The position numbers and the translations under genes were made by a program. Below the pieces are notes generated by a model that saw only the letters and a program-made list of their open reading frames with translations, was not told the origin of the DNA and did not search any database. DNA of 32,000 nt. It comes from an uncultured Alphaproteobacteria bacterium. Lineage in GTDB: Bacteria > Pseudomonadota > Alphaproteobacteria > Rs-D84. The stretch's first letter is position 1; every line of letters begins with the position of its first letter. The stretch is from NCBI GenBank assembly GCA_963931495.1, contig OZ007020.1, positions 750,001-782,000 of the forward strand, given 5' to 3'. Positions 4,898 through 32,000 of this stretch are shown here, one piece after another.

Positions 4898-5539
4898 TTA
4901 ATTTTGATAATACGCGGCCCCGGTACACGACCAAGATCCGGTACTGTCACTGCCGGTCAGACCGGTAACATAGCATGATGTGATTGATTCTGCCCCAGAA
5001 CCAGATGTTGTTCCGCCACCACTGCATTGGGTACAGCCGGTGTAATTGCCAATCATTTGCATCGCTGGTGGCGTTCCCCACCAACCTTTGGCACAACGAT
5101 ATGAAGATTTTTTGGAACATGTGCATGTTGACGTATTGCATGTCGCATCAGTAACATATTCGTATCCTGTGGCGGGCGATGTCACCGAATCAAGACAATT
5201 ATCACATGTGCCATCACAATCATCACCGCCACCGATATCACCACCCTGTTTTACACAGTCGTAATATGTCCCCGTATTGGCACACGGTGATACCAACTGT
5301 ACTGTTTTCCGTGTTCGGGTGTATCCGCTGTTGCATGTGGTACATGATTCAATTTTGTTATTCGTGCTGCCGCCCCAACAACTGACTGTTTTTGTTTTGC
5401 AATTCAAAACACGTACCATCGGCGTTGTTGTATCCCCTGTTTGACAGGCCTGGTCTGAACATGCCATACCCAACGCCCACGCATTTGATGTCAGCGCACC
5501 CCCGCAAATAATTGTTAAAAATATTGTGAACTTTTTCAT
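4898..5539 (-). CDS. secreted cysteine-rich protein, paralog A (function unknown)
   Basis: The signal peptide is MKKFTIFLTIICGGALTSNAWA. The mature part contains about 19 Cys. It aligns by motif with the upstream gene: TC.SGY.R, DDCDGTCD.C, TGY.Y...ATCNT..C.C, WGTP, GCT.C, SIT.CY and GSDS.GSW. Confidence 0.75.
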   Translation of the reverse strand: MKKFTIFLTIICGGALTSNAWALGMACSDQACQTGDTTTPMVRVLNCKTKTVSCWGGSTNNKIESCTTCNSGYTRTRKTVQLVSPCANTGTYYDCVKQGGDIGGGDDCDGTCDNCLDSVTSPATGYEYVTDATCNTSTCTCSKKSSYRCAKGWWGTPPAMQMIGNYTGCTQCSGGGTTSGSGAESITSCYVTGLTGSDSTGSWSCTGAAYYQN

Positions 5540-5560: not shown

Positions 5561-6325
5561 TCAATAGAAACAATTTCCGCCTTCAATCACCCACGACCCG
5601 GAACTGTCACTGCCAACGGTTCCATTGGGTAAATAGCATGCAGTAATTGACGTACTGCCCGCCATACAGCGCGCGGTATCAGGGGCGCACCGTGTACACC
5701 CAGATGTCAGTGATACATTCGGGGTTCCCCAATAATTTGGGGCACACTGTGTGTGCCTGTCTTTGGTGCATTCACATAAATCCGTGTTACATGTTGCAAC
5801 GGTGCGGTATTGATATCCTGTATTGTATGTTTGCCACGGTGTACTGGTACAATCGTCGCACGTGCCATCACAGTCATCTGGCGCGCCTGGATATTTGCAA
5901 TCGGTATATGAAACCGTGTTTGTACATTCGCCATTCAGTTTTATTGTTCGTGTTACGCGTTCGTAACCCGATTTGCACGTATTACATGTCGCAACCGCCG
6001 CACTGGTTGTTGCCAGATTTTGGCCATAGCATGTCATGCTGGACGCCATGCAATTACGCAATATATTATCAGGCACAACTTCGTCAGAACAGCCCCGGGG
6101 TTGGCATACCTGGCCTGTTGTACCACCGCCACCAACACCACCGCTGCCACCGCCGGGATTTGTGGGGTCGGTGCCACTGCCACCTTCGTTGCCGCCAACG
6201 TCACCACCAGATGAACTGATTGCATATGCAGTATCAATATGCGCCACAGTGCATAAAAGTGCGGTAATGCATACCAATGAAATTAATGCACGCGCCGAAT
6301 CTAAACCTCCGTTTAGATTCGGCAA
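5561..6325 (-). CDS. secreted cysteine-rich protein, paralog B (function unknown); start codon uncertain
   Basis: A hydrophobic signal-like segment ends in TAYA. A Gly-rich linker follows, then about 20 Cys with the same motif order as paralog A. The track start TTG 6325 lies inside the conserved upstream element. An alternative in-frame TTG lies at 6277. Confidence 0.7.
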   Translation of the reverse strand: MPNLNGGLDSARALISLVCITALLCTVAHIDTAYAISSSGGDVGGNEGGSGTDPTNPGGGSGGVGGGGTTGQVCQPRGCSDEVVPDNILRNCMASSMTCYGQNLATTSAAVATCNTCKSGYERVTRTIKLNGECTNTVSYTDCKYPGAPDDCDGTCDDCTSTPWQTYNTGYQYRTVATCNTDLCECTKDRHTQCAPNYWGTPNVSLTSGCTRCAPDTARCMAGSTSITACYLPNGTVGSDSSGSWVIEGGNCFY

Positions 6326-8172: not shown

Positions 8173-8949
8173 ATGTTCAAAGCACTGAAAATGAAATTTG
8201 CCGCATGGCGCATGAATCGTAAATCTGCATCACGTTCGCGTGCGCGCAAGACCAACAGCAAACGTAAAACGCCGTCATTCTGGGCACGTGTATGGAACGC
8301 AATTTGTGTGCCATTTCGTGCGATTTGGCGCGGGTGCAAACGTATGTGGGCATGGATTTGCGGAATAAACCTGGTTGGAATGGCAAACATTACATTGTTA
8401 TGTGCAATCATCGTATTATTTTCTGGGCTGATATTAAACATTGTCGGACGCAACCAACCAAACGTTGTTTTGGTTGCAAAAAATGACGTATCAAATATAA
8501 CCAGCACAAATGTAACCGTTAACCAGAATTCTGTTACACGAATTGTTCGTGATCGGCCAGCAACATTGCCAATCAAAATCAATCCAAAAACACGTACACT
8601 GGACAGCCGACCGATAAACGTTGCACACGTTACCCCAGATTATGTCGCAATTAACCAGACTGCGCGTCGTGGCAATGTAATGTATGGCGATGTAATTATT
8701 GACAGCCGTGGCGCCGCAGAAATGCTGAAATGCGGCGATGAAGTACATGGGAACCTGTATTTGCAAAATATGCGCAAATATACATTACCGTGCAATATAC
8801 GCATAGATGGTAATTTATTTCTGCGTGATGTTGGAATGTTACAGTTCTGTGGCGAATTCACAGTAACCGGAAATATATACGTAAATCCGCGTTCTTCGTT
8901 TGGGCCCCTGCCCCGGAATGCGCGTATTGGCGGGCAAGTCATTATATAA
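8173..8949 (+). CDS. hypothetical membrane-anchored protein with C-terminal 20-21-aa repeats
   Basis: The N-terminus is very basic and Trp-rich and is followed by one TM segment (ANITLLCAIIVLFSGLILNIV). The C-terminus has four or five repeats of G-[ND]-[LIV]-[YFI]-[LIV], each with a conserved Cys. I recognised no family. Confidence 0.55.
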   Translation: MFKALKMKFAAWRMNRKSASRSRARKTNSKRKTPSFWARVWNAICVPFRAIWRGCKRMWAWICGINLVGMANITLLCAIIVLFSGLILNIVGRNQPNVVLVAKNDVSNITSTNVTVNQNSVTRIVRDRPATLPIKINPKTRTLDSRPINVAHVTPDYVAINQTARRGNVMYGDVIIDSRGAAEMLKCGDEVHGNLYLQNMRKYTLPCNIRIDGNLFLRDVGMLQFCGEFTVTGNIYVNPRSSFGPLPRNARIGGQVII

Positions 8950-26993: not shown

Positions 26994-27710
26994 ATGATAC
27001 GTCCGTCATTGCGCAAACCAGACCAAATTCGCCCAACATCAATGGAAACAGGAATTAATAAATGGGCCGAAGGTTCGTGTCTGATTAAAATGGGCGGAAC
27101 ACATGTTTTATGCACTGCATCAATTGACCTGAACCAACCATTATGGAAACGACTGCAAAATAAAACAGGCGGATGGGTCACCGCGGAATATTCTATGTTG
27201 CCACGCGCCAACGGAACACGGAAATCGCGTGATGCAATGATGCGCGATCACCGGTGCGCGGAAATATCACGCCTGGTTGGGCGCGCATTGCGCAGTGTCA
27301 CAGACATGGAAAAATTGGGACGACATACAATAACAATTGACTGTGACGTAATCCAGGCAGACGGCGGCACGCGGTGCGCATCTGTGACCGGTGGGTTCGT
27401 TGCGTTGGCGTTGGCGGTTCGGCACCTGATGGAACAAGGCCGCATCACCGAAAACCCAATACGGGATTATGTTGCCGCAATTTCAGCCGGCCTGTGGAAC
27501 AACGAATTAATACTGGATTTGGATTATGACGAAGATTGTGCCGCAGAACTGGATTCAAATTTTGTGGTGTCTGGGGCCGGAAAATTTGTTGAAATCCAGG
27601 CCACCGGTGAACAGCATCCATTTGAACAAAATCAAATTATTGAATTAATGAATATGGCGGCCAATGGATGCAAGAAATTAATAGAAATGCAAAAACAAGT
27701 ACTGGCATAA
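26994..27710 (+). CDS. rph: ribonuclease PH
   Basis: The N-terminus reads MIRPSLRKPDQIRP......AEGSCLIKMGGTHVLCTAS, followed by the DCDVIQADGGTR block. AAAGGA SD precedes the ATG. Confidence 0.95.
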   Translation: MIRPSLRKPDQIRPTSMETGINKWAEGSCLIKMGGTHVLCTASIDLNQPLWKRLQNKTGGWVTAEYSMLPRANGTRKSRDAMMRDHRCAEISRLVGRALRSVTDMEKLGRHTITIDCDVIQADGGTRCASVTGGFVALALAVRHLMEQGRITENPIRDYVAAISAGLWNNELILDLDYDEDCAAELDSNFVVSGAGKFVEIQATGEQHPFEQNQIIELMNMAANGCKKLIEMQKQVLA

Positions 27711-27713
27711 CAA

Positions 27714-27747
27714 AAATCCGCCATTCGGCGGATTTTTTATTTTTTTA
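27714..27747. terminator. bidirectional Rho-independent terminator shared by rph and the small lipoprotein gene
   Basis: Stem aaatccgcc (27714-27722) pairs with ggcggattt (27727-27735) around a 4-nt loop. A long T-run follows, and an A-run lies upstream. Confidence 0.8.
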
Positions 27748-27891
27748 GCACCCTGTGGCCGTGCCAATCCATTTAGAAATTGAAATATCCTTGTGTAACA
27801 AGAAATCATATTCACAATTGCCCTGTTTATAATGCCCCATACATGCAGACAATGTCAAAACGGCAAACAACGCCAACATTACTTTTTTCAT
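27745..27891 (-). CDS. 48-aa lipoprotein (short ORF absent from the ORF track)
   Basis: Hand translation gives MKKVMLALFAVLTLSACMGHYKQGNCEYDFLLHKDISISKWIGTATGC. The lipobox is LSAC. AAAGGAGAA lies 5 nt before the ATG, and the gene has its own consensus promoter and a terminator. Confidence 0.7.
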   Translation of the reverse strand: MKKVMLALFAVLTLSACMGHYKQGNCEYDFLLHKDISISKWIGTATGC

Positions 27892-27926
27892 TGCGGTTCT
27901 CCTTTATGCATAAAAAACACGAATAG

Positions 27927-27955
27927 ATTATATAAGAATGTATTAATTAAGGCAA
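27927..27955 (-). promoter_or_regulatory. sigma-70-type promoter for the 48-aa lipoprotein gene
   Basis: The minus strand reads TTGCCT (27955-27950), a 17-nt spacer, then TATAAT (27932-27927). Confidence 0.55.
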
Positions 27956-27960
27956 GCAAC

Positions 27961-28314
27961 TTATATTATACCGCGAATCCAGCGAATTTTGTGCCCTGTA
28001 ACCACAATTGCGTCAAAGCGTGCATCCCCATTCCAATGTGTGCGCGCAATATAAGTTTCAGCCGCACGACGCAAACGCACAGACTGGGCCGGCGTAATCG
28101 CATCCAGTCCAGTGATAACATCATGACGATATTTTACTTCTATGAACAACAACAGATTTTTACGCTTTGCAATTATGTCAATTTCGGCACGTCCAGTATT
28201 TCGGCCGGTTGTATATCGCCGATTTACAATAAGGAATCCATGTATACGCAAATACATCCGCGCAATAAATTCGGCCCACAAGCCTGATTTATAAGAATTA
28301 AATTCCTGTGTCAT
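27961..28314 (-). CDS. yraN: YraN family (UPF0102) predicted endonuclease
   Basis: The pattern GLWAE..A..YL...G..I..RRY....GEIDIIA......L.F.EVK.R is present here as RAEIDIIAKRKNLLLFIEVKYR. The start overlaps the upstream stop as TAATG. Confidence 0.8.
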   Translation of the reverse strand: MTQEFNSYKSGLWAEFIARMYLRIHGFLIVNRRYTTGRNTGRAEIDIIAKRKNLLLFIEVKYRHDVITGLDAITPAQSVRLRRAAETYIARTHWNGDARFDAIVVTGHKIRWIRGII

Positions 28315-29099
28315 TAAAATGCGTATGGTTTGGCCTGGAAATTTTCACGTGCCGCCTGGATATTCTTGGCAACATCAGACGAATACCGACCCATGTCAAC
28401 CAAATCCAATGAACCATAATACGCCGTCATCATTGGGTCATATGCATTATTCGTTGATATCCATTTGTCTGTACCAGAATTTGGCGCACCGTATTTATCC
28501 AAGACACCTTGCCAAAATGCCAAAATTTTCTTTTCGCGCTGGTCAGCAAATTTTTCATTATCGCCTTCTATATCATTAACATCATTGTTATACAGAACAC
28601 GCCATACGACGTTATCACTGGCATTACTGGTAAAATACACAACGATTGTTTCACCGGTTCTTTCGCGTACCAAGTGTAATTCGGACGCATACATCAGTCC
28701 CCTGTCCCGCGCCAACGTATTAATGCATTGTTCCAGTTCATCTGGGGCGACAATACCCTGCTGGCGACACTCGTAATCCAGATTATATTTCCATTCTTTT
28801 TGTATTGAATAAATAATACTGTCTTTTTCACGCGGGCTGTATAATCCCTTGGCCTTAAAGAACAGTGTTTGAATGTCTTCAAACGACGCCCCCAGCATAA
28901 TCCCAGCAATATCAAAATTGCTGACTGTTATTGGCTGGGCCCCGATATTCAAACTGACCGTTTCAGCAGATAAATCACCCGTCCCGCCGTCAGTAATGGC
29001 AAAATTACTGAAATCAAAATCATCTGTGGCCGCATGTGCCCCAAACACACCCCCAGAACAAAATATTAACGCGACAAAAATTTTATATATTTGCTTCAT
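28314..29099 (-). CDS. secreted or periplasmic protein, function unknown
   Basis: The signal peptide is MKQIYKIFVALIFCSGGVFGAHA. The 261-aa product matches no motif I recognise and ends in PYAF. It is translationally coupled to genes on both sides. Confidence 0.55.
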   Translation of the reverse strand: MKQIYKIFVALIFCSGGVFGAHAATDDFDFSNFAITDGGTGDLSAETVSLNIGAQPITVSNFDIAGIMLGASFEDIQTLFFKAKGLYSPREKDSIIYSIQKEWKYNLDYECRQQGIVAPDELEQCINTLARDRGLMYASELHLVRERTGETIVVYFTSNASDNVVWRVLYNNDVNDIEGDNEKFADQREKKILAFWQGVLDKYGAPNSGTDKWISTNNAYDPMMTAYYGSLDLVDMGRYSSDVAKNIQAARENFQAKPYAF

Positions 29100-29104
29100 G
29101 TGTC

Positions 29105-29746
29105 TCAGCCTTGAATAATCTCGTTAACACGAAAATGAAAGACAGTGCACGGATCACCCCCGTTTTCAAGATAATCATGCAAAGCCTGAATGTCTATGTT
29201 TGATAACATACGCGGTTCATATGTTATATCCATAAACATTGTTCCACGTGATTTTTGCGGAATAACGCCGAAATTATTCGGGCCATTCCATGTCGTTAAT
29301 TCATAATTTACAATCCAATACGTACTGTTAACCGGACGCGTAACCCGATCAATAACACGCACAGTACGGAATGCCCTGTTCCCCGCCATTTCTTGGATTG
29401 TGCGCGCTTCGCCATTCAGCCAACTGTCAAATACCGACCGGGATGACATACGCCCCAGTGCACCATTTGCCCCCATACGACGCGCGATATTTTCAACATC
29501 TGGGGCAACATAAAAGTATTCAGTAACATATTTGCGAACCAGCAAATCCAGAAATTCCATTTCACCCATTTCTGTCGGTGTTTCGGGTGTCCCAGGACGA
29601 TGTTCTGACAAATTATTCGGTTGAAAAAAGTATGGTATAATACGCTGGGACGACGTCGCATCATATATTGCCCCAGCCAAATATATCGCCCCACCAGACA
29701 TGGCGACCAATATCAATCCTAATAAAAACAATAATATTTTTTTCAT
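29105..29746 (-). CDS. bitopic membrane protein, VirB8-like (second of a tandem pair)
   Basis: An N-terminal TM segment is followed by SQRIIPYFF, which parallels SQRIDPFIV in the upstream paralog. The periplasmic domain has a VirB8/NTF2-like block order (..KYVTEYFYV.., YWIVNYELTTW, ..DITYEP..). The ATGA overlap links it to the upstream gene. Confidence 0.4.
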   Translation of the reverse strand: MKKILLFLLGLILVAMSGGAIYLAGAIYDATSSQRIIPYFFQPNNLSEHRPGTPETPTEMGEMEFLDLLVRKYVTEYFYVAPDVENIARRMGANGALGRMSSRSVFDSWLNGEARTIQEMAGNRAFRTVRVIDRVTRPVNSTYWIVNYELTTWNGPNNFGVIPQKSRGTMFMDITYEPRMLSNIDIQALHDYLENGGDPCTVFHFRVNEIIQG

Positions 29747-30468
29747 TCGCTTATCTTGTACGCATTAAAATCCGCCACATAATATCCCATCGTTTGCGGA
29801 TATTTTTCCGTGTTACGTGCAATCTTGGCAAACGCAATCACAGATATTTCACCCGCCAAATTTGATTTTATCGTTGCCGTAACCCGCCATGTTCCACCAA
29901 CATCAGACACATTCCCCACCGGTTCCATATAGATTTGATTTTTATCAACAACCCATTCTTCGCCCAGCGCAACACGTTCTTGATACAGCGGCACAACATC
30001 GTATATAAAACGTGAAAACAATTCTTCCCCAGACACACAATACAGATTACATGTTTTATCAGAAAAAGAATATGGACTGGCGGTGCCACAGTCAACATCA
30101 CGTTCGCATGTTTGCCACATTGCGTCATTCACCTGGGCATCCCCAGATACAGAAAACCAATTAGCGGTAAAATTCCCCAGCACAGATTCTTGTAATGCCA
30201 TCTTGGCCGAATATTCAATCGGGCCATTGCCATGAGAATGCCCAACAACCGTCCATTGACCAGTTAATTTATCTATCTCTACAATAAATGGGTCAATCCG
30301 CTGGCTGCGTACCGCCCAGATTAAAATACCACATAAAAATATTACCAACAAAAACGTCACGCACGACGCAATGCCCATAAATCTGGACAACGCCACAGAC
30401 TTTCCCGCCGGGAATGCGGGTGTGTTAAAATCGCTTGGATAATCCAATGGCATCCCCCCCTGTGACAT
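29743..30468 (-). CDS. bitopic membrane protein, VirB8-like (first of a tandem pair)
   Basis: A ~30-aa cytoplasmic N-terminus is followed by one TM segment. Then comes IDPFIVEIDKLTGQWTVV, which matches the VirB8 hallmark EPYV(I/V)RVD..TG....VV. The C-terminal end is P.TMGYYVADFNAYK (compare NPLGFQVTSYR). The length of 241 aa is typical of VirB8. Confidence 0.55.
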   Translation of the reverse strand: MSQGGMPLDYPSDFNTPAFPAGKSVALSRFMGIASCVTFLLVIFLCGILIWAVRSQRIDPFIVEIDKLTGQWTVVGHSHGNGPIEYSAKMALQESVLGNFTANWFSVSGDAQVNDAMWQTCERDVDCGTASPYSFSDKTCNLYCVSGEELFSRFIYDVVPLYQERVALGEEWVVDKNQIYMEPVGNVSDVGGTWRVTATIKSNLAGEISVIAFAKIARNTEKYPQTMGYYVADFNAYKISE

Positions 30469-30475
30469 ATGGCGG

Positions 30476-30622
30476 TTATGCCTGGTACACCATGATGCAC
30501 GCGCATGGGCTTAATTTCAATTCGTTGTTATCGTAACCGACACCCACGGGTTCGCGGTCATAAATCTGGCCACATCCGGCCAGCGCCAATGCAATGAATG
30601 CACCCAGTAAAATTTTTTTCAT
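30476..30622 (-). CDS. 48-aa lipoprotein at the VirB7-like position (short ORF absent from the ORF track)
   Basis: Hand translation gives MKKILLGAFIALALAGCGQIYDREPVGVGYDNNELKLSPCACIMVYQA. The lipobox is LAGC. A strong SD (AAAAGGGGGAAAAGG) precedes the ATG. The stop lies 7 nt before the next gene's ATG. Confidence 0.7.
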   Translation of the reverse strand: MKKILLGAFIALALAGCGQIYDREPVGVGYDNNELKLSPCACIMVYQA

Positions 30623-30653
30623 AACCTTTTCCCCCTTTTATTTCCTTGGTTGA

Positions 30654-30683
30654 ATTATAAGAAAAATTCGCCATCCCGGTCAA
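30654..30683 (-). promoter_or_regulatory. sigma-70-type promoter of the lipoprotein/VirB8-like/yraN operon
   Basis: The minus strand reads TTGACC (30683-30678), an 18-nt spacer, then TATAAT (30659-30654). The promoter begins 10 nt after the bamA stop. Confidence 0.6.
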
Positions 30684-30692
30684 GATATAAAA

Positions 30693-32000
30693 TCAAAACT
30701 GGGTTTCAAATGACAATAAAAAGCGCTGTTCACGGTCATATGGTGTCATTTTAATTGGCCACCCCCAACTGAAATTCATTGGCCCCATCGGCGTATTCCA
30801 ATAAATACCAACACCCGCAGATGTACGAATTGTATCATCAATATAATTTTGTATCAGTATCCCGCCATAATCATATTCGTATTCTTGTTTCGGTGGCTTG
30901 CCCAAGATTCCGTAATCAAAGAATACAAAGCCCTTGACCTGGTATTCGTCTGGGATAAATATCGGAAAGTTTAATTGCACAGAACCATTAATCTTCCATA
31001 ATCCGCCCAACGCATATGTTGAATAGTACCGCGCACGTGAACCAACACCCGCAATATCAAATCCACGCAGTGATTCCCCACCCAAGAAGTAACGATATAC
31101 ACGCGATACGTATGAATCCCCCAGCGGCTGGATTAATCCCAAATCCAATGATGCGCGCAATTGCCACCGGTCATCAAAAAACTTTACCATACCGATAACG
31201 TCCGCATTATACCGCATATATGTTTCGGTTCCACCAAATCCAGTGTACGCAATCCCCAGATTGCCGACAATGCCCGTATGGGTATTTTGTTCAAAATTCG
31301 TGTCCAGGTTATAGTACCGTAAATATGTACCAACTGTAAACAAATTTGCATTACGCCAATCTTGCCCCGTACGCATCGCAGAATACAAATCGTAATTCTG
31401 GTCAAACGCCGCCGACAAGCGCACCGTCTGGGACCAATGGTCGGTCAAACGCCACCCCATGCGCCCGGCAATGGTCAAAGAATCACGGTCATACCCAAAG
31501 CCGCCCAGTGACGTATAATCATACATTGTGTATGCAACATCAAAGCCCGCCGACAATGGCCGACCAAACAAATATGGTTCGGTGAAACTGAATAATGCCT
31601 GTTTTTGATATTGCGCCAACGATGCGCGTAATTGCACCACTTGGCCCCGCCCCATAAAGTTAGATTCAGAAATTCCTGCATCAACCATAAATCCGTTTAT
31701 GTTTGACCACCCAAATCCACCAGATAATTCGCCGGTTGGTTGTTCTTCAACCTGGATGTCCAAGTTTATCATATTTGCATCAGCAATACGATTAGGCACC
31801 ATCTGGACATTTTTGAAATACCGCGTACGCATCAAATTCTGGCGCGCTTCTTCAATTGTCTGTAATGAAAATGGATCGCCCGAACGCATCGGCACCAATT
31901 GTTCAATCACAGAATCAAATGTACGAACATTACCTAAAATATTTATATTATTCAGGTATATTCTGTTTGTGGGCTGGATTCTGAAATTTATATCAATTGT
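30693..32000 (-). CDS. bamA: outer membrane protein assembly factor BamA, C-terminal part (gene continues beyond the right edge)
   Basis: The last POTRA domain and the Omp85 barrel are visible (FLGGESLRGFD, C-terminal LLSFETQF). The reading frame stays open from 31910 to position 32000 (TIDINFRIQPTNRIYLNNINILGNVRTFDSVIEQ...), so the track's Met at 31910 is internal. Confidence 0.9.
   Translation of the reverse strand, partial: TIDINFRIQPTNRIYLNNINILGNVRTFDSVIEQLVPMRSGDPFSLQTIEEARQNLMRTRYFKNVQMVPNRIADANMINLDIQVEEQPTGELSGGFGWSNINGFMVDAGISESNFMGRGQVVQLRASLAQYQKQALFSFTEPYLFGRPLSAGFDVAYTMYDYTSLGGFGYDRDSLTIAGRMGWRLTDHWSQTVRLSAAFDQNYDLYSAMRTGQDWRNANLFTVGTYLRYYNLDTNFEQNTHTGIVGNLGIAYTGFGGTETYMRYNADVIGMVKFFDDRWQLRASLDLGLIQPLGDSYVSRVYRYFLGGESLRGFDIAGVGSRARYYSTYALGGLWKINGSVQLNFPIFIPDEYQVKGFVFFDYGILGKPPKQEYEYDYGGILIQNYIDDTIRTSAGVGIYWNTPMGPMNFSWGWPIKMTPYDREQRFLLSFETQF

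What the first reader, a model, noticed from the sequence alone, without database searches (positions are those of the whole stretch)
27961..30683. Self-contained, translationally coupled five-gene envelope operon immediately downstream of bamA
A near-consensus promoter (TTGACC-N18-TATAAT) and a strong SD start the operon 10 nt after the bamA stop. Five minus-strand genes then follow with minimal junctions: a 48-aa lipoprotein, a 7-nt gap, a 241-aa bitopic protein, an ATGA overlap, a 213-aa bitopic paralog, a 5-nt gap, a 261-aa secreted protein, a TAATG overlap, and yraN. By predicted topology the products comprise a lipoprotein (possibly outer-membrane), two inner-membrane-anchored periplasmic proteins and a soluble periplasmic protein. 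That is the composition expected of a trans-envelope complex, yet the set matches no described system I know.
Basis: partly seen in the sequence, partly recalled or inferred. Interest (0 to 1): 0.72.

Follow-up and report, generated by a model that had tools for sequence, protein, structure and literature searches.

The report
Orphan VirB8-pair envelope operon beside bamA
Next to bamA, an uncultured small-genome gut alphaproteobacterium carries a strongly conserved operon for a tiny near-invariant lipoprotein, two divergent VirB8-type (type IV secretion) membrane proteins and a periplasmic protein of unmatched fold, a combination that fits no described system.

Summary
All five minus-strand genes, the tight junctions and the TTGACC-N18-TATAAT promoter are at the stated coordinates. 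The promoter is conserved in 77 of 82 related loci.

The functional unit is four genes, not five: lipoprotein, 241-aa, 213-aa and 261-aa proteins. These four keep their order in about 160 related loci from the uncultured order Rs-D84 (Candidatus Enterousia). In ten loci (nine distinct contigs) the block is inverted in place between bamA and yraN, so yraN is only a neighbour.

The two bitopic proteins are divergent VirB8/TrbF-family paralogs. The 261-aa protein is unassigned: no Pfam match, and a confident AlphaFold model without any Foldseek match in PDB or BFVD. Its distant homologs occur alone in other Alphaproteobacteria.

The mature 31-residue lipopeptide is 95% identical across species, which is more conserved than BamA (80%).

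No other T4SS gene lies within 10 kb in any locus. One sub-lineage has an orphan VirB11-like ATPase 6–7 kb away.

Most likely this is an inner-membrane-anchored periplasmic scaffold of T4SS ancestry. It either belongs to a dispersed, reduced T4SS-like machine or has been co-opted for another envelope role.

The parts
30654..30683 (-). Operon promoter: -35 TTGACC (30683-30678), 18-nt spacer, -10 TATAAT (30659-30654). It is followed by a strong Shine-Dalgarno AAGGGGGAAAAGG before the ATG at 30622.
   Evidence: Best sigma-70-like site in 27600-30800, 11 of 12 matches. TTGAC[CG]-N18-TATAAT is present upstream of the lipoprotein gene in 77 of 82 related loci, with a variable spacer.
30476..30622 (-). 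Gene for a 48-aa lipoprotein. Signal peptide with lipobox LAG|C; mature 31-residue peptide CGQIYDREPVGVGYDNNELKLSPCACIMVYQA.
   Evidence: Pfam LPAM_1 hit, 25.2 bits. The mature peptide is nearly invariant in 82 loci, with mean pairwise identity 95% against 80% for BamA. Third-codon-position identity is only 55%, so the constraint is on the peptide.
29743..30468 (-). VirB8-family bitopic protein 'P241' (longest ORF 241 aa; likely start 30453, 236 aa). It has a conserved cytoplasmic N-terminal motif YPxxFxTPAFPAG, one TM helix (about residues 31-53), and a periplasmic domain with a four-cysteine loop.
   Evidence: Pfam VirB8 PF04335 scores 27.6 bits against a cut-off of 23.2. 34 of 37 orthologs hit VirB8, best E 3e-8. 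One ortholog is named 'VirB8/TrbF family protein' by NCBI. Conserved residues are listed.
29105..29746 (-). Second, more divergent VirB8-family protein 'P213' (213 aa). There is almost no cytoplasmic tail: MKK, then a 25-residue hydrophobic anchor, then the periplasmic domain. Its start overlaps the P241 stop (ATGA).
   Evidence: hhalign of the P241 family against the P213 family gives probability 87%, E 3.8e-6, over 148 columns. 10 of 32 orthologs hit Pfam VirB8; P0153 matches profile positions 25-172 of 213 at 25.2 bits. The P213 HMM hits P241 orthologs at about 1e-8. The overlap or abutment with P241 is kept in 73 of 83 loci.
28314..29099 (-). Secreted periplasmic protein 'P261' (261 aa). 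It has a signal peptide (…GAHA|AT), a disordered N-terminal stretch carrying the clade-specific motif FDFxNFAIxD, and an alpha/beta domain ending in the conserved tail Y-x-F, whose last residue is Phe in nearly all members.
   Evidence: No Pfam or NCBIfam hit, alone or in 106 family members. The AlphaFold2 model built on a diverse alignment has pLDDT 89.1 and pTM 0.81. Foldseek finds no match in PDB (best E 0.4, TM 0.13) or BFVD. The family has 142 representative clusters; members looked up were all from uncultured Alphaproteobacteria. C111, C125, E150 and W213 are invariant.
27961..28314 (-). yraN (UPF0102, predicted endonuclease-like cytoplasmic protein). It is co-oriented, and its start overlaps the P261 stop (TAATG). 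It is a neighbour and probably co-transcribed here, but not part of the conserved module.
   Evidence: Pfam UPF0102 66.6 bits; NCBIfam YraN 90.2 bits. It is separated from the module by an in-place inversion (L040-L043; L098, L101, L102, L108, L160, L162) or by a GT2 gene (L001, L002).
27745..27891 (-). A 48-aa DUF4223-family lipoprotein gene downstream of yraN, with its own promoter-like site (27955-27927).
   Evidence: Pfam DUF4223 45.4 bits. Promoter-like site matching 10 of 12 positions. It follows yraN in 68 of 71 loci, with 84% mean identity.
27712..27737 (.). Terminator-like GC-rich hairpin with T-rich flanks on both sides, between rph (+) and the minus-strand genes. It is the first terminator-like site downstream of the operon.
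   Evidence: 11-bp stem AAAAATCCGCC-ATTC-GGCGGATTTTT.
30693..31910 (-). 3' part of bamA (runs off the window), immediately upstream of the operon promoter.
   Evidence: Pfam Omp85 165.9 bits plus POTRA. Full-length 756-762-aa BamA lies upstream in L001, L002, L004 and L005.

Best explanation
The locus is an autonomously transcribed, translationally coupled four-gene module specific to the uncultured, reduced-genome gut alphaproteobacterial order Rs-D84 (Candidatus Enterousia). It encodes four products:
1. a tiny lipoprotein whose 31-residue mature peptide is almost invariant;
2. and 3. two divergent paralogs of VirB8, the bitopic inner-membrane scaffold protein of type IV secretion systems;
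4. a secreted periplasmic protein with no recognisable fold relatives.

Proposed mechanism (inferred, not shown):
- The two VirB8-like proteins form a hetero-oligomeric assembly anchored in the inner membrane. This would resemble DotI/DotJ in the Legionella system.
- The conserved cytoplasmic tail of the longer paralog contacts a cytoplasmic partner, plausibly the orphan VirB11-like ATPase found in this lineage.
- Their periplasmic domains hold the 261-aa protein, possibly through its clade-specific disordered N-terminal FDFxNFAI motif.
- The lipoprotein takes the VirB7-like position at the outer membrane, possibly using its invariant C-x-C cysteines.

Together they would form the periplasm-spanning scaffold of a strongly reduced, genomically dispersed T4SS-like machine in a partner-dependent bacterium.

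What is shown: gene order, promoter, coupling, family membership of the two VirB8-like proteins, the selection pattern, and the absence of other T4SS genes nearby.

What is inferred: physical complex formation, the outer-membrane location of the lipoprotein, the link to the ATPase, and what, if anything, is transported.
For: - VirB8 membership: Pfam PF04335 scores above its gathering cut-off for P241 (27.6 against 23.2 bits). It hits 34 of 37 orthologs and 10 of 32 P213 orthologs, one across profile positions 25-172 of 213.
- Paralogy: hhalign probability 87%, E 3.8e-6, with cross-hits at about 1e-8.
- Gene order: a small lipoprotein gene directly upstream of a virB8-like gene mirrors virB7-virB8 and the R. 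typhi operon that begins rvhB7-rvhB8-I-rvhB9-II (PMC4676284).
- Unit behaviour: the four genes stay together in about 160 loci and invert as a block. The promoter is conserved in 77 of 82 loci. The stop/start overlap of the two paralogs is kept in 73 of 83 loci.
- Strong purifying selection in genomes of about 0.75-1.0 Mb (PMC12306168): lipoprotein 95% and P261 70% mean identity, with saturated synonymous sites.
- A VirB11-like ATPase exists in the lineage. It scores 156.6 bits full-length against TIGR02788, and its best PDB hits are VirB11 and Cag-alpha. It lies 6-7 kb from the module in L137 and L172-L174.
- An ortholog of that ATPase, 53% identical, lies 3 kb from the P261 homolog in a distant lineage (L086).
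Against: - No VirB2, B3, B4, B5, B6, B9, B10 or VirD4 homolog was found by phmmer with the R388 proteins. The search covered 22,650 ORFs from the window and about 170 related loci, each with up to 10 kb of flank. None is in the 32-kb window by Pfam.
- In known dispersed systems such as the Rickettsiales rvh, virB8 still sits with virB9-virB11.
- The fourth protein is not VirB9-like. Solved VirB9 structures exist (my own knowledge), and Foldseek found no PDB match of any kind.
- Distant P261 homologs occur without any VirB8 neighbour.
- VirB7 proteins are, to my knowledge, poorly conserved, unlike this near-invariant lipoprotein. No PVNK-like VirB7 motif is present.
- The VirB11-like ATPase scores below NCBIfam's VirB11 cut-off (250 bits). 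It is adjacent to the module in only one sub-lineage.
- The VirB8 fold of the two proteins was not confirmed by a structure model.
- The profile built from the P241 alignment (A2) found no PDB VirB8 sequence.
Confidence: 0.45

Rival explanations
1. This is a T4SS-independent envelope complex. An ancestral VirB8 pair was co-opted as an inner-membrane scaffold and now works only with the invariant lipoprotein and the P261 protein. The role would be housekeeping: tethering the membranes, or assisting outer-membrane or cell-wall biogenesis next to BAM. No secretion ATPases or channel would be involved.
For: - The module sits in a housekeeping block (uppS-cdsA-rseP-bamA) where skp-lpxD-fabZ-lpxA usually follow in Proteobacteria. 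The block is seen; the usual arrangement is my own knowledge.
- It has a near-consensus, conserved promoter.
- No T4SS channel or ATPase genes lie within 10 kb in about 170 loci.
- The lipoprotein is more conserved than BamA, which is unlike VirB7.
- P261 is an older alphaproteobacterial periplasmic protein. Elsewhere it stands alone near envelope or cell-wall genes: AsmA, LptF/G and MurI in L086; MreB in L169; M23 peptidase, bactofilin and a polysaccharide deacetylase in L170; SPOR and FtsK in L089.
- The only genome study of the order that I could read does not mention secretion systems.
Against: - To my knowledge every characterised VirB8-family protein is a T4SS component.
- The conserved cytoplasmic tail of P241 suggests a cytoplasmic partner.
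- A VirB11-like ATPase is present in the lineage and lies close to the module, or to P261, in two separate lineages.
- The neighbourhood links of distant P261 homologs to envelope genes are loose and untested.
Confidence: 0.33
2. There is no common function. These are unrelated small envelope genes that happen to be co-transcribed downstream of bamA in a compact genome, and they do not form a complex.
For: - Reduced genomes pack unrelated genes into operons. yraN and the DUF4223 gene are such neighbours here.
- No interaction was tested.
- P261 homologs live alone in other lineages.
Against: - The four genes move and invert as one block, with their promoter, in ten loci from nine distinct contigs.
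- Their order is invariant in about 160 loci, while flanking genes vary (for example L003).
- Stop/start overlaps and 3-8-nt gaps are conserved.
- Two of the four genes are paralogs of one scaffold family.
Confidence: 0.12
3. The module is a remnant of an integrated conjugative element or plasmid, that is, decaying T4SS genes.
For: VirB8-family genes usually arrive on mobile elements. Phage genes lie near the locus in L001.
Against: - GC content is the same as the rest of the window (0.43).
- There is no integrase, relaxase or tRNA at the borders.
- The chromosomal position is the same in 258 species-level genomes.
- All four ORFs are intact and under purifying selection.
- tblastn finds no similarity in 72,556 plasmids.
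Confidence: 0.03

Closest known systems
virB7-virB8(-virB9) segment of P-type type IV secretion systems, including the Rickettsiales rvh system with duplicated RvhB8-I and RvhB8-II
   Same: A small lipoprotein gene lies directly upstream of a VirB8-family gene, and the VirB8-like protein is bitopic. Two highly divergent VirB8 paralogs coexist in one genome, as in Rickettsiales, where the paralogs share no more than 19% identity (PMC4676284). The host is a reduced-genome alphaproteobacterium.
   Different: No virB9, virB10, virB11 or virD4 follows. The two paralogs are adjacent and translationally coupled in one operon. The canonical NPxG motif is absent. The lipoprotein is near-invariant rather than fast-evolving. 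The fourth gene encodes a non-VirB protein of unmatched fold.
Legionella Dot/Icm DotI-DotJ (IcmL-IcmM), VirB8-like paralogs of a type IVB system
   Same: Two VirB8-like paralogs are encoded in the same system, one of them truncated, and they oligomerise together in the inner membrane (summarised in PMC4676284). This is the precedent for a hetero-oligomeric VirB8-like scaffold.
   Different: By my own knowledge, DotI and DotJ are adjacent genes (icmL-icmM) embedded in a complete Dot/Icm gene cluster. No sequence similarity to them was detected here. Hetero-oligomerisation of P241 and P213 is not tested.
BAM-associated genes downstream of bamA (skp/ompH, and small BAM/LPT lipoproteins such as BamE and LptM)
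   Same: The module occupies the position directly after rseP-bamA. It includes a small lipoprotein and a periplasmic protein, both with very high conservation.
   Different: No homology was found. The only LptM hits are sub-threshold and cover the signal peptide and lipobox. There is no Skp or BamE Pfam hit, and the P261 model has no PDB match.

Membership tests
VirB8/TrbF family (Pfam PF04335) | Profile score at or above the curated Pfam gathering cut-off (23.2 bits) | tested here: met
   P241 scores 27.6 bits. 34 of 37 orthologs match at E below 0.1, best 3e-8; five orthologs scanned individually score 26-29 bits. The window's P213 itself has no hit, but 10 of 32 orthologs do, and P0153 scores 25.2 bits over profile positions 25-172. 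P213 is tied to P241 by hhalign.
VirB8/TrbF family (Pfam PF04335) | Bitopic topology: short N-terminal cytoplasmic part, one TM helix, C-terminal periplasmic domain | tested here: met
   Read directly from the sequences. P241 has a TM helix at about residues 31-53 after a conserved 30-residue tail. P213 has a hydrophobic segment at about residues 4-28 after MKK. For P213, cleavage after A-G-A cannot be excluded.
VirB8/TrbF family (Pfam PF04335) | NTF2-like fold of the periplasmic domain | not tested
Profile searches of the PDB sequences found no VirB8 chain.
VirB8/TrbF family (Pfam PF04335) | NPxG motif mediating canonical dimerisation (present in about 90% of VirB8 proteins, PMC4676284) | tested here: not met
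   There is no NPxG in either family. P241 has a conserved YPxTxG-YYVxDFN and P213 has DPxxxFxF at the equivalent C-terminal position. These may be degenerate versions; that is my reading of the alignments.
VirB8/TrbF family (Pfam PF04335) | Encoded within or beside a T4SS gene cluster (VirB4, B6, B9, B10, B11) | tested here: not met
   phmmer with the R388 Trw proteins on 22,650 ORFs of the window and about 170 loci (up to 10 kb of flank each) found only two VirB11-like hits. Genome-wide presence could not be tested.
VirB7-like T4SS lipoprotein | Small lipoprotein (about 45-55 aa precursor) with a lipobox, encoded next to virB8 | tested here: met
   48 aa, lipobox LAG|C, 7-22 nt upstream of the VirB8-like gene.
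VirB7-like T4SS lipoprotein | Binds VirB9 (P[ILV]NK-type motif, or a disulfide to VirB9) | tested here: not met
   There is no such motif in CGQIYDREPVGVGYDNNELKLSPCACIMVYQA, and no VirB9 homolog nearby. Whether its C-x-C cysteines bond to a partner cannot be tested here.
Type IV secretion system (as a system) | VirB4-family ATPase, the universal T4SS signature | not testable with these tools
   None is in the window or within 10 kb in the related loci.
VirB11 ATPase (NCBIfam TIGR02788), for the orphan ATPase in L137 and L172-L174 | Score at or above the equivalog cut-off (249.95 bits) | tested here: not met
   156.6 bits over the full length (model positions 5-306 of 308). This is far better than any other T2SSE subfamily, and the best PDB hits are VirB11 and Cag-alpha. 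It is VirB11-like, not a certified equivalog.
YraN / UPF0102 | Pfam PF02021 above its cut-off | tested here: met
   66.6 bits against 23.6; NCBIfam YraN models up to 90.2 bits.

The most novel reading that the evidence does not exclude
A new kind of trans-envelope assembly. VirB8 scaffolds would have been detached from type IV secretion and joined to a periplasmic protein of new fold and a near-invariant 31-residue lipopeptide. The assembly would be kept under strong selection beside bamA in every member of a partner-dependent order with genomes of 1 Mb or less. It would serve outer-membrane biogenesis, membrane tethering or cell-to-cell contact rather than secretion.
Probability: 0.3. Interest if true: 0.8.

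Novelty: new variant of a known kind. Interest (0 to 1): 0.6.

Why it matters
- VirB8 proteins are known only as parts of complete type IV secretion systems. A VirB8 pair fixed in a housekeeping operon, without channel or VirB4 genes nearby, would mean one of two things. It could reveal an extremely reduced, scattered T4SS in a whole order of uncultured gut symbionts. Or it could be the first case of VirB8 co-option for another envelope function.
- Rs-D84 bacteria have genomes of about 0.75-1 Mb, lack respiration and standard nutrient transporters, and are thought to depend on partner cells (PMC12306168). A conserved envelope machine is therefore a candidate for that dependence.
- The locus also defines two protein families without annotation. 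One is a periplasmic domain found across uncultured Alphaproteobacteria, with a confident model and no fold match. The other is a lipopeptide more conserved than BamA.
- Both families are concrete targets for structural and interaction studies.

Tried and rejected
- Sequence searches of the PDB with each protein and with family profiles gave only noise: no VirB8, VirB9 or other relevant chains.
- NCBIfam gave only sub-threshold TrbF hits for P241, and LptM hits confined to the lipoprotein's signal peptide.
- The first AlphaFold run on P261 used a shallow alignment (at least 67% identity) and gave pLDDT 56, so it was discarded. The second, with distant family members, gave pLDDT 89.
- I considered that P261 is a tandem BamE/BLIP-like repeat, because of its GM-x-x-x-V and YG-x-P motifs. 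hhalign of its two halves gave probability 4% and no Pfam support appeared, so the idea was dropped.
- I considered that the C-terminal Y-x-F marks an outer-membrane beta-barrel. The model is a soluble alpha/beta fold, so this was rejected.
- tblastn against plasmids found nothing for P241 or P261.
- Two alignments were too diverse for the search for related loci.
- hhalign of the P241 and P213 alignments against R388 TrwG was attempted three times and failed for technical reasons, so it gave no result.
- The Begmatov 2023 Enterousia paper is not held in the library.
It worked through its cluster members.
- The mobile-element remnant idea was rejected on composition, fixed chromosomal position and purifying selection.


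Full report
**Observation.** Reading the minus strand from 30700 to 27700 confirms the description.

- bamA ends at 30693.
- A TTGACC-N18-TATAAT promoter lies at 30683-30654, followed by a strong Shine-Dalgarno sequence.
- A 48-aa lipoprotein gene follows (30622-30476, lipobox LAGC).
- Then comes a 241-aa ORF (30468-29743).
- A 213-aa ORF overlaps it by ATGA (29746-29105).
- A 261-aa ORF follows after 5 nt (29099-28314).
- yraN overlaps that ORF by TAATG (28314-27961).

The promoter is the best sigma-70-like site in the region, matching 11 of 12 positions.

There are two minor corrections. Orthologs of the 241-aa protein begin at its Met6, so the start is probably 30453. The first terminator-like hairpin downstream, found on the opposite strand, is at 27712-27737. 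Its palindromic stem has T-rich flanks on both sides, and it lies beyond an additional 48-aa DUF4223 lipoprotein gene that has its own promoter-like site.

**Conservation and extent of the unit.** Homologs of all three larger proteins come only from uncultured gut Alphaproteobacteria.

- A scan of one genome per species found relatives of the 261-aa protein in 258 genomes. The best 80 are all Candidatus Enterousia / Rs-D84-type MAGs.
- I ran HMM searches on the ORFs of these loci. The order lipoprotein-P241-P213-P261 is kept in every locus long enough to show it.
- The same order holds in 79 further metagenome contigs found with the P241 family. These include termite-gut, rumen and activated-sludge samples.
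- In L040-L043 and six of the loci, the four genes with their promoter are inverted in place between bamA and yraN. L102 and L160 are the same contigs as L040 and L043, so this is nine distinct contigs.
- In L001 and L002 a glycosyltransferase gene separates P261 from yraN.
- In L003 and a few other loci bamA is not the upstream neighbour.

The unit is therefore four genes, and yraN and bamA are usual neighbours only. The promoter TTGAC[CG]-N18-TATAAT is present in 77 of 82 loci with a variable spacer. The P241/P213 stop-start overlap or abutment is kept in 73 of 83 loci, and the P213-P261 gap is typically 3-8 nt.

**What the products are: the two bitopic proteins.** P241 matches Pfam VirB8 above the curated cut-off (27.6 against 23.2 bits).

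- 34 of 37 P241 orthologs match VirB8, and NCBI names one of them 'VirB8/TrbF family protein'.
- The window's P213 has no Pfam hit, but 10 of 32 orthologs match VirB8. One does so across most of the periplasmic domain, profile positions 25-172 of 213.
- The two families align to each other with hhalign probability 87% and E 3.8e-6.
- The P213 profile hits P241 orthologs at about 1e-8.

P241 has a conserved cytoplasmic motif (YPxxFxTPAFPAG) and a loop with four cysteines. P213 has almost no cytoplasmic tail. Neither keeps the canonical NPxG motif.

**What the products are: P261.** P261 has no Pfam or NCBIfam match, either alone or across 106 family members.

- With a diverse alignment AlphaFold2 gives a confident alpha/beta model (pLDDT 89.1, pTM 0.81).
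- Foldseek finds nothing comparable in PDB (best E 0.4, TM 0.13) or BFVD. The other fold libraries were unavailable.
- The family comprises 142 representative clusters; the members I looked up all come from uncultured Alphaproteobacteria.
- Distant members have a signal peptide, a long acidic low-complexity linker and the same C-terminal domain ending in Y-x-F.
- In six distant lineages the gene stands alone, without VirB8-like or lipoprotein neighbours.

The association with the VirB8 pair is therefore specific to Rs-D84. So is the conserved but disordered N-terminal motif FDFxNFAIxD of P261.

**Selection pattern.** I measured mean pairwise identity across 71 genomes that carry all the genes.

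| Product | Mean pairwise identity |
|---|---|
| Mature lipopeptide | 95% |
| DUF4223 lipoprotein | 84% |
| BamA | 80% |
| P261 | 70% |
| YraN | 60% |
| P241 | 48% |
| P213 | 45% |

The lipoprotein's third codon positions are only 55% identical, against 95-97% at positions 1 and 2. The constraint is therefore on the peptide, CGQ[IV]YDREPVGVGYDNNELKLSPCACIMV[YF]QA, not on the DNA. A 31-residue lipopeptide more conserved than BamA is unusual and unexplained.

**Host and search for the rest of a T4SS.** Rs-D84 bacteria have genomes of about 0.75-1.0 Mb. They lack the TCA cycle, respiration and standard nutrient transporters. They are proposed to depend on partner cells (PMC12306168).

- The 32-kb window holds housekeeping genes only: TilS, FtsH, RNase III, LepB, PBP1, acetate kinase, RecG, RNase E/G and RNase PH.
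- phmmer with the R388 VirB2-B6, B8-B11 and VirD4 proteins on 22,650 ORFs of the window and about 170 loci found only two hits. Both are to VirB11.
- One hit is a 325-aa ATPase 6-7 kb downstream of the module in one Rs-D84 sub-lineage (L137, L172-L174). It stands alone among unannotated genes.
- That ATPase scores 156.6 bits full-length against NCBIfam VirB11, below the 250-bit cut-off but far above every other T2SSE subfamily. Its best PDB relatives are VirB11 proteins.
- The other hit is its ortholog, 53% identical, 3 kb from the P261 homolog in the distant lineage L086.

Whether VirB4, B6, B9 and B10 exist elsewhere in these genomes could not be tested.

**Explanation.** The best-supported reading has confidence about 0.45. 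The module is a periplasm-spanning scaffold of T4SS ancestry.

- A VirB8-like hetero-oligomer sits in the inner membrane.
- The P241 tail may contact a cytoplasmic ATPase.
- P261 is held in the periplasm.
- The invariant lipoprotein takes the VirB7-like outer position.
- Together they would form part of a reduced, dispersed T4SS-like machine.

The main rival, at about 0.33, is that the VirB8 pair was co-opted and the module works without any secretion machinery, in a housekeeping envelope role beside BAM. Several observations favour this rival:

- the housekeeping position and consensus promoter;
- the absence of channel genes nearby;
- the un-VirB7-like conservation of the lipoprotein;
- the independent, envelope-gene-associated life of P261 in other lineages.

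Mere co-transcription of unrelated genes (about 0.12) is disfavoured by block inversion and invariant order. A mobile-element remnant (about 0.03) is disfavoured by composition, fixed position and purifying selection.

**Comparison with known systems.** Three known arrangements come closest.

- The virB7-virB8 segment of P-type T4SSs, and the Rickettsiales rvh system with its two divergent RvhB8 paralogs (PMC4676284).
- Legionella DotI/DotJ, which is the precedent for a VirB8-like paralog pair that oligomerises together.
- Positionally, the genes that normally follow bamA.

The module differs from all of them. It lacks adjacent VirB9-B11. It places the paralogs in one coupled operon. It includes a protein of unmatched fold. 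Its lipoprotein is near-invariant.

**Verdict.** The novelty class is a new variant of a known kind, and interest is 0.6. The decisive test is a genome-wide T4SS search in complete Rs-D84 genomes together with multimer modelling.

Noticed in passing
L137 9417-10394 (+); same gene in L172 9499-10476, L173 10001-10978, L174 9417-10394; ortholog in L086 4082-5047 (-): An orphan VirB11-like ATPase of 319-325 aa. It scores 156.6 bits against NCBIfam VirB11, and its best PDB hits are VirB11 and Cag-alpha. No other T4SS gene is beside it. It lies 6-7 kb from the module in one Rs-D84 sub-lineage. An ortholog 53% identical lies 3 kb from the P261 homolog in a distant alphaproteobacterial lineage. Its 90%-identity cluster has 62 members.
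   Followed up: partly
window 27745-27891 (-), promoter-like site 27955-27927: A second 48-aa lipoprotein gene, Pfam DUF4223 at 45.4 bits (from memory, the E. coli YhfL family). It follows yraN in 68 of 71 related loci and is 84% identical on average. Its function is unknown.
   Followed up: partly
window 27712-27737: An 11-bp-stem GC-rich hairpin with T-rich flanks on both sides, between convergent rph (+, ends 27710) and the DUF4223 gene (-, ends 27745). It is probably a bidirectional terminator.
   Followed up: no
L001 2330-7723 and L004 2327-7717 (upstream context of the module in relatives): The module follows frr-uppS-cdsA-rseP-bamA. In most Proteobacteria skp-lpxD-fabZ-lpxA come next (my own knowledge), but none of these is seen within 10 kb here. 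Whether Rs-D84 makes lipid A or has Skp was not checked.
   Followed up: no
window 4898-5539 (-) and 5561-6325 (-): Two adjacent ORFs of 213 and 254 aa with no Pfam match even at E up to 1. They are not hit by the P241 or P213 profiles.
   Followed up: partly
L089 5869-6572 (+) and L169 7888-5858 (-): In two distant lineages a similar gene trio lies near the P261 homolog. It consists of a small lipoprotein (45-68 aa), a 116-126-aa protein with a signal peptide and two hydrophobic helices (pilin-like in appearance), and a TM protein of about 50 aa. The trio sits next to xerC/D-like and DnaJ-domain genes. R388 VirB2 and VirB3 did not hit these proteins.
   Followed up: no
L001 11683-14092: Phage genes (terminase large subunit, portal/head-tail connector, Bbp19-like) lie directly after the DUF4223 gene in a relative 59% identical in P241. 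This may be a prophage remnant.
   Followed up: no
P0318, P0323, P0340, P0342, P0362 (distant P261-family proteins): Distant family members carry acidic, Pro/Lys-rich low-complexity regions of 100-300 residues between the signal peptide and the conserved domain. The Rs-D84 proteins instead have a short conserved FDFxNFAI motif there.
   Followed up: partly
window 8173-8949 (+): A 258-aa ORF with a borderline Pfam hit (25.3 bits against a cut-off of 25) to the WisP-family C-terminal region.
   Followed up: no
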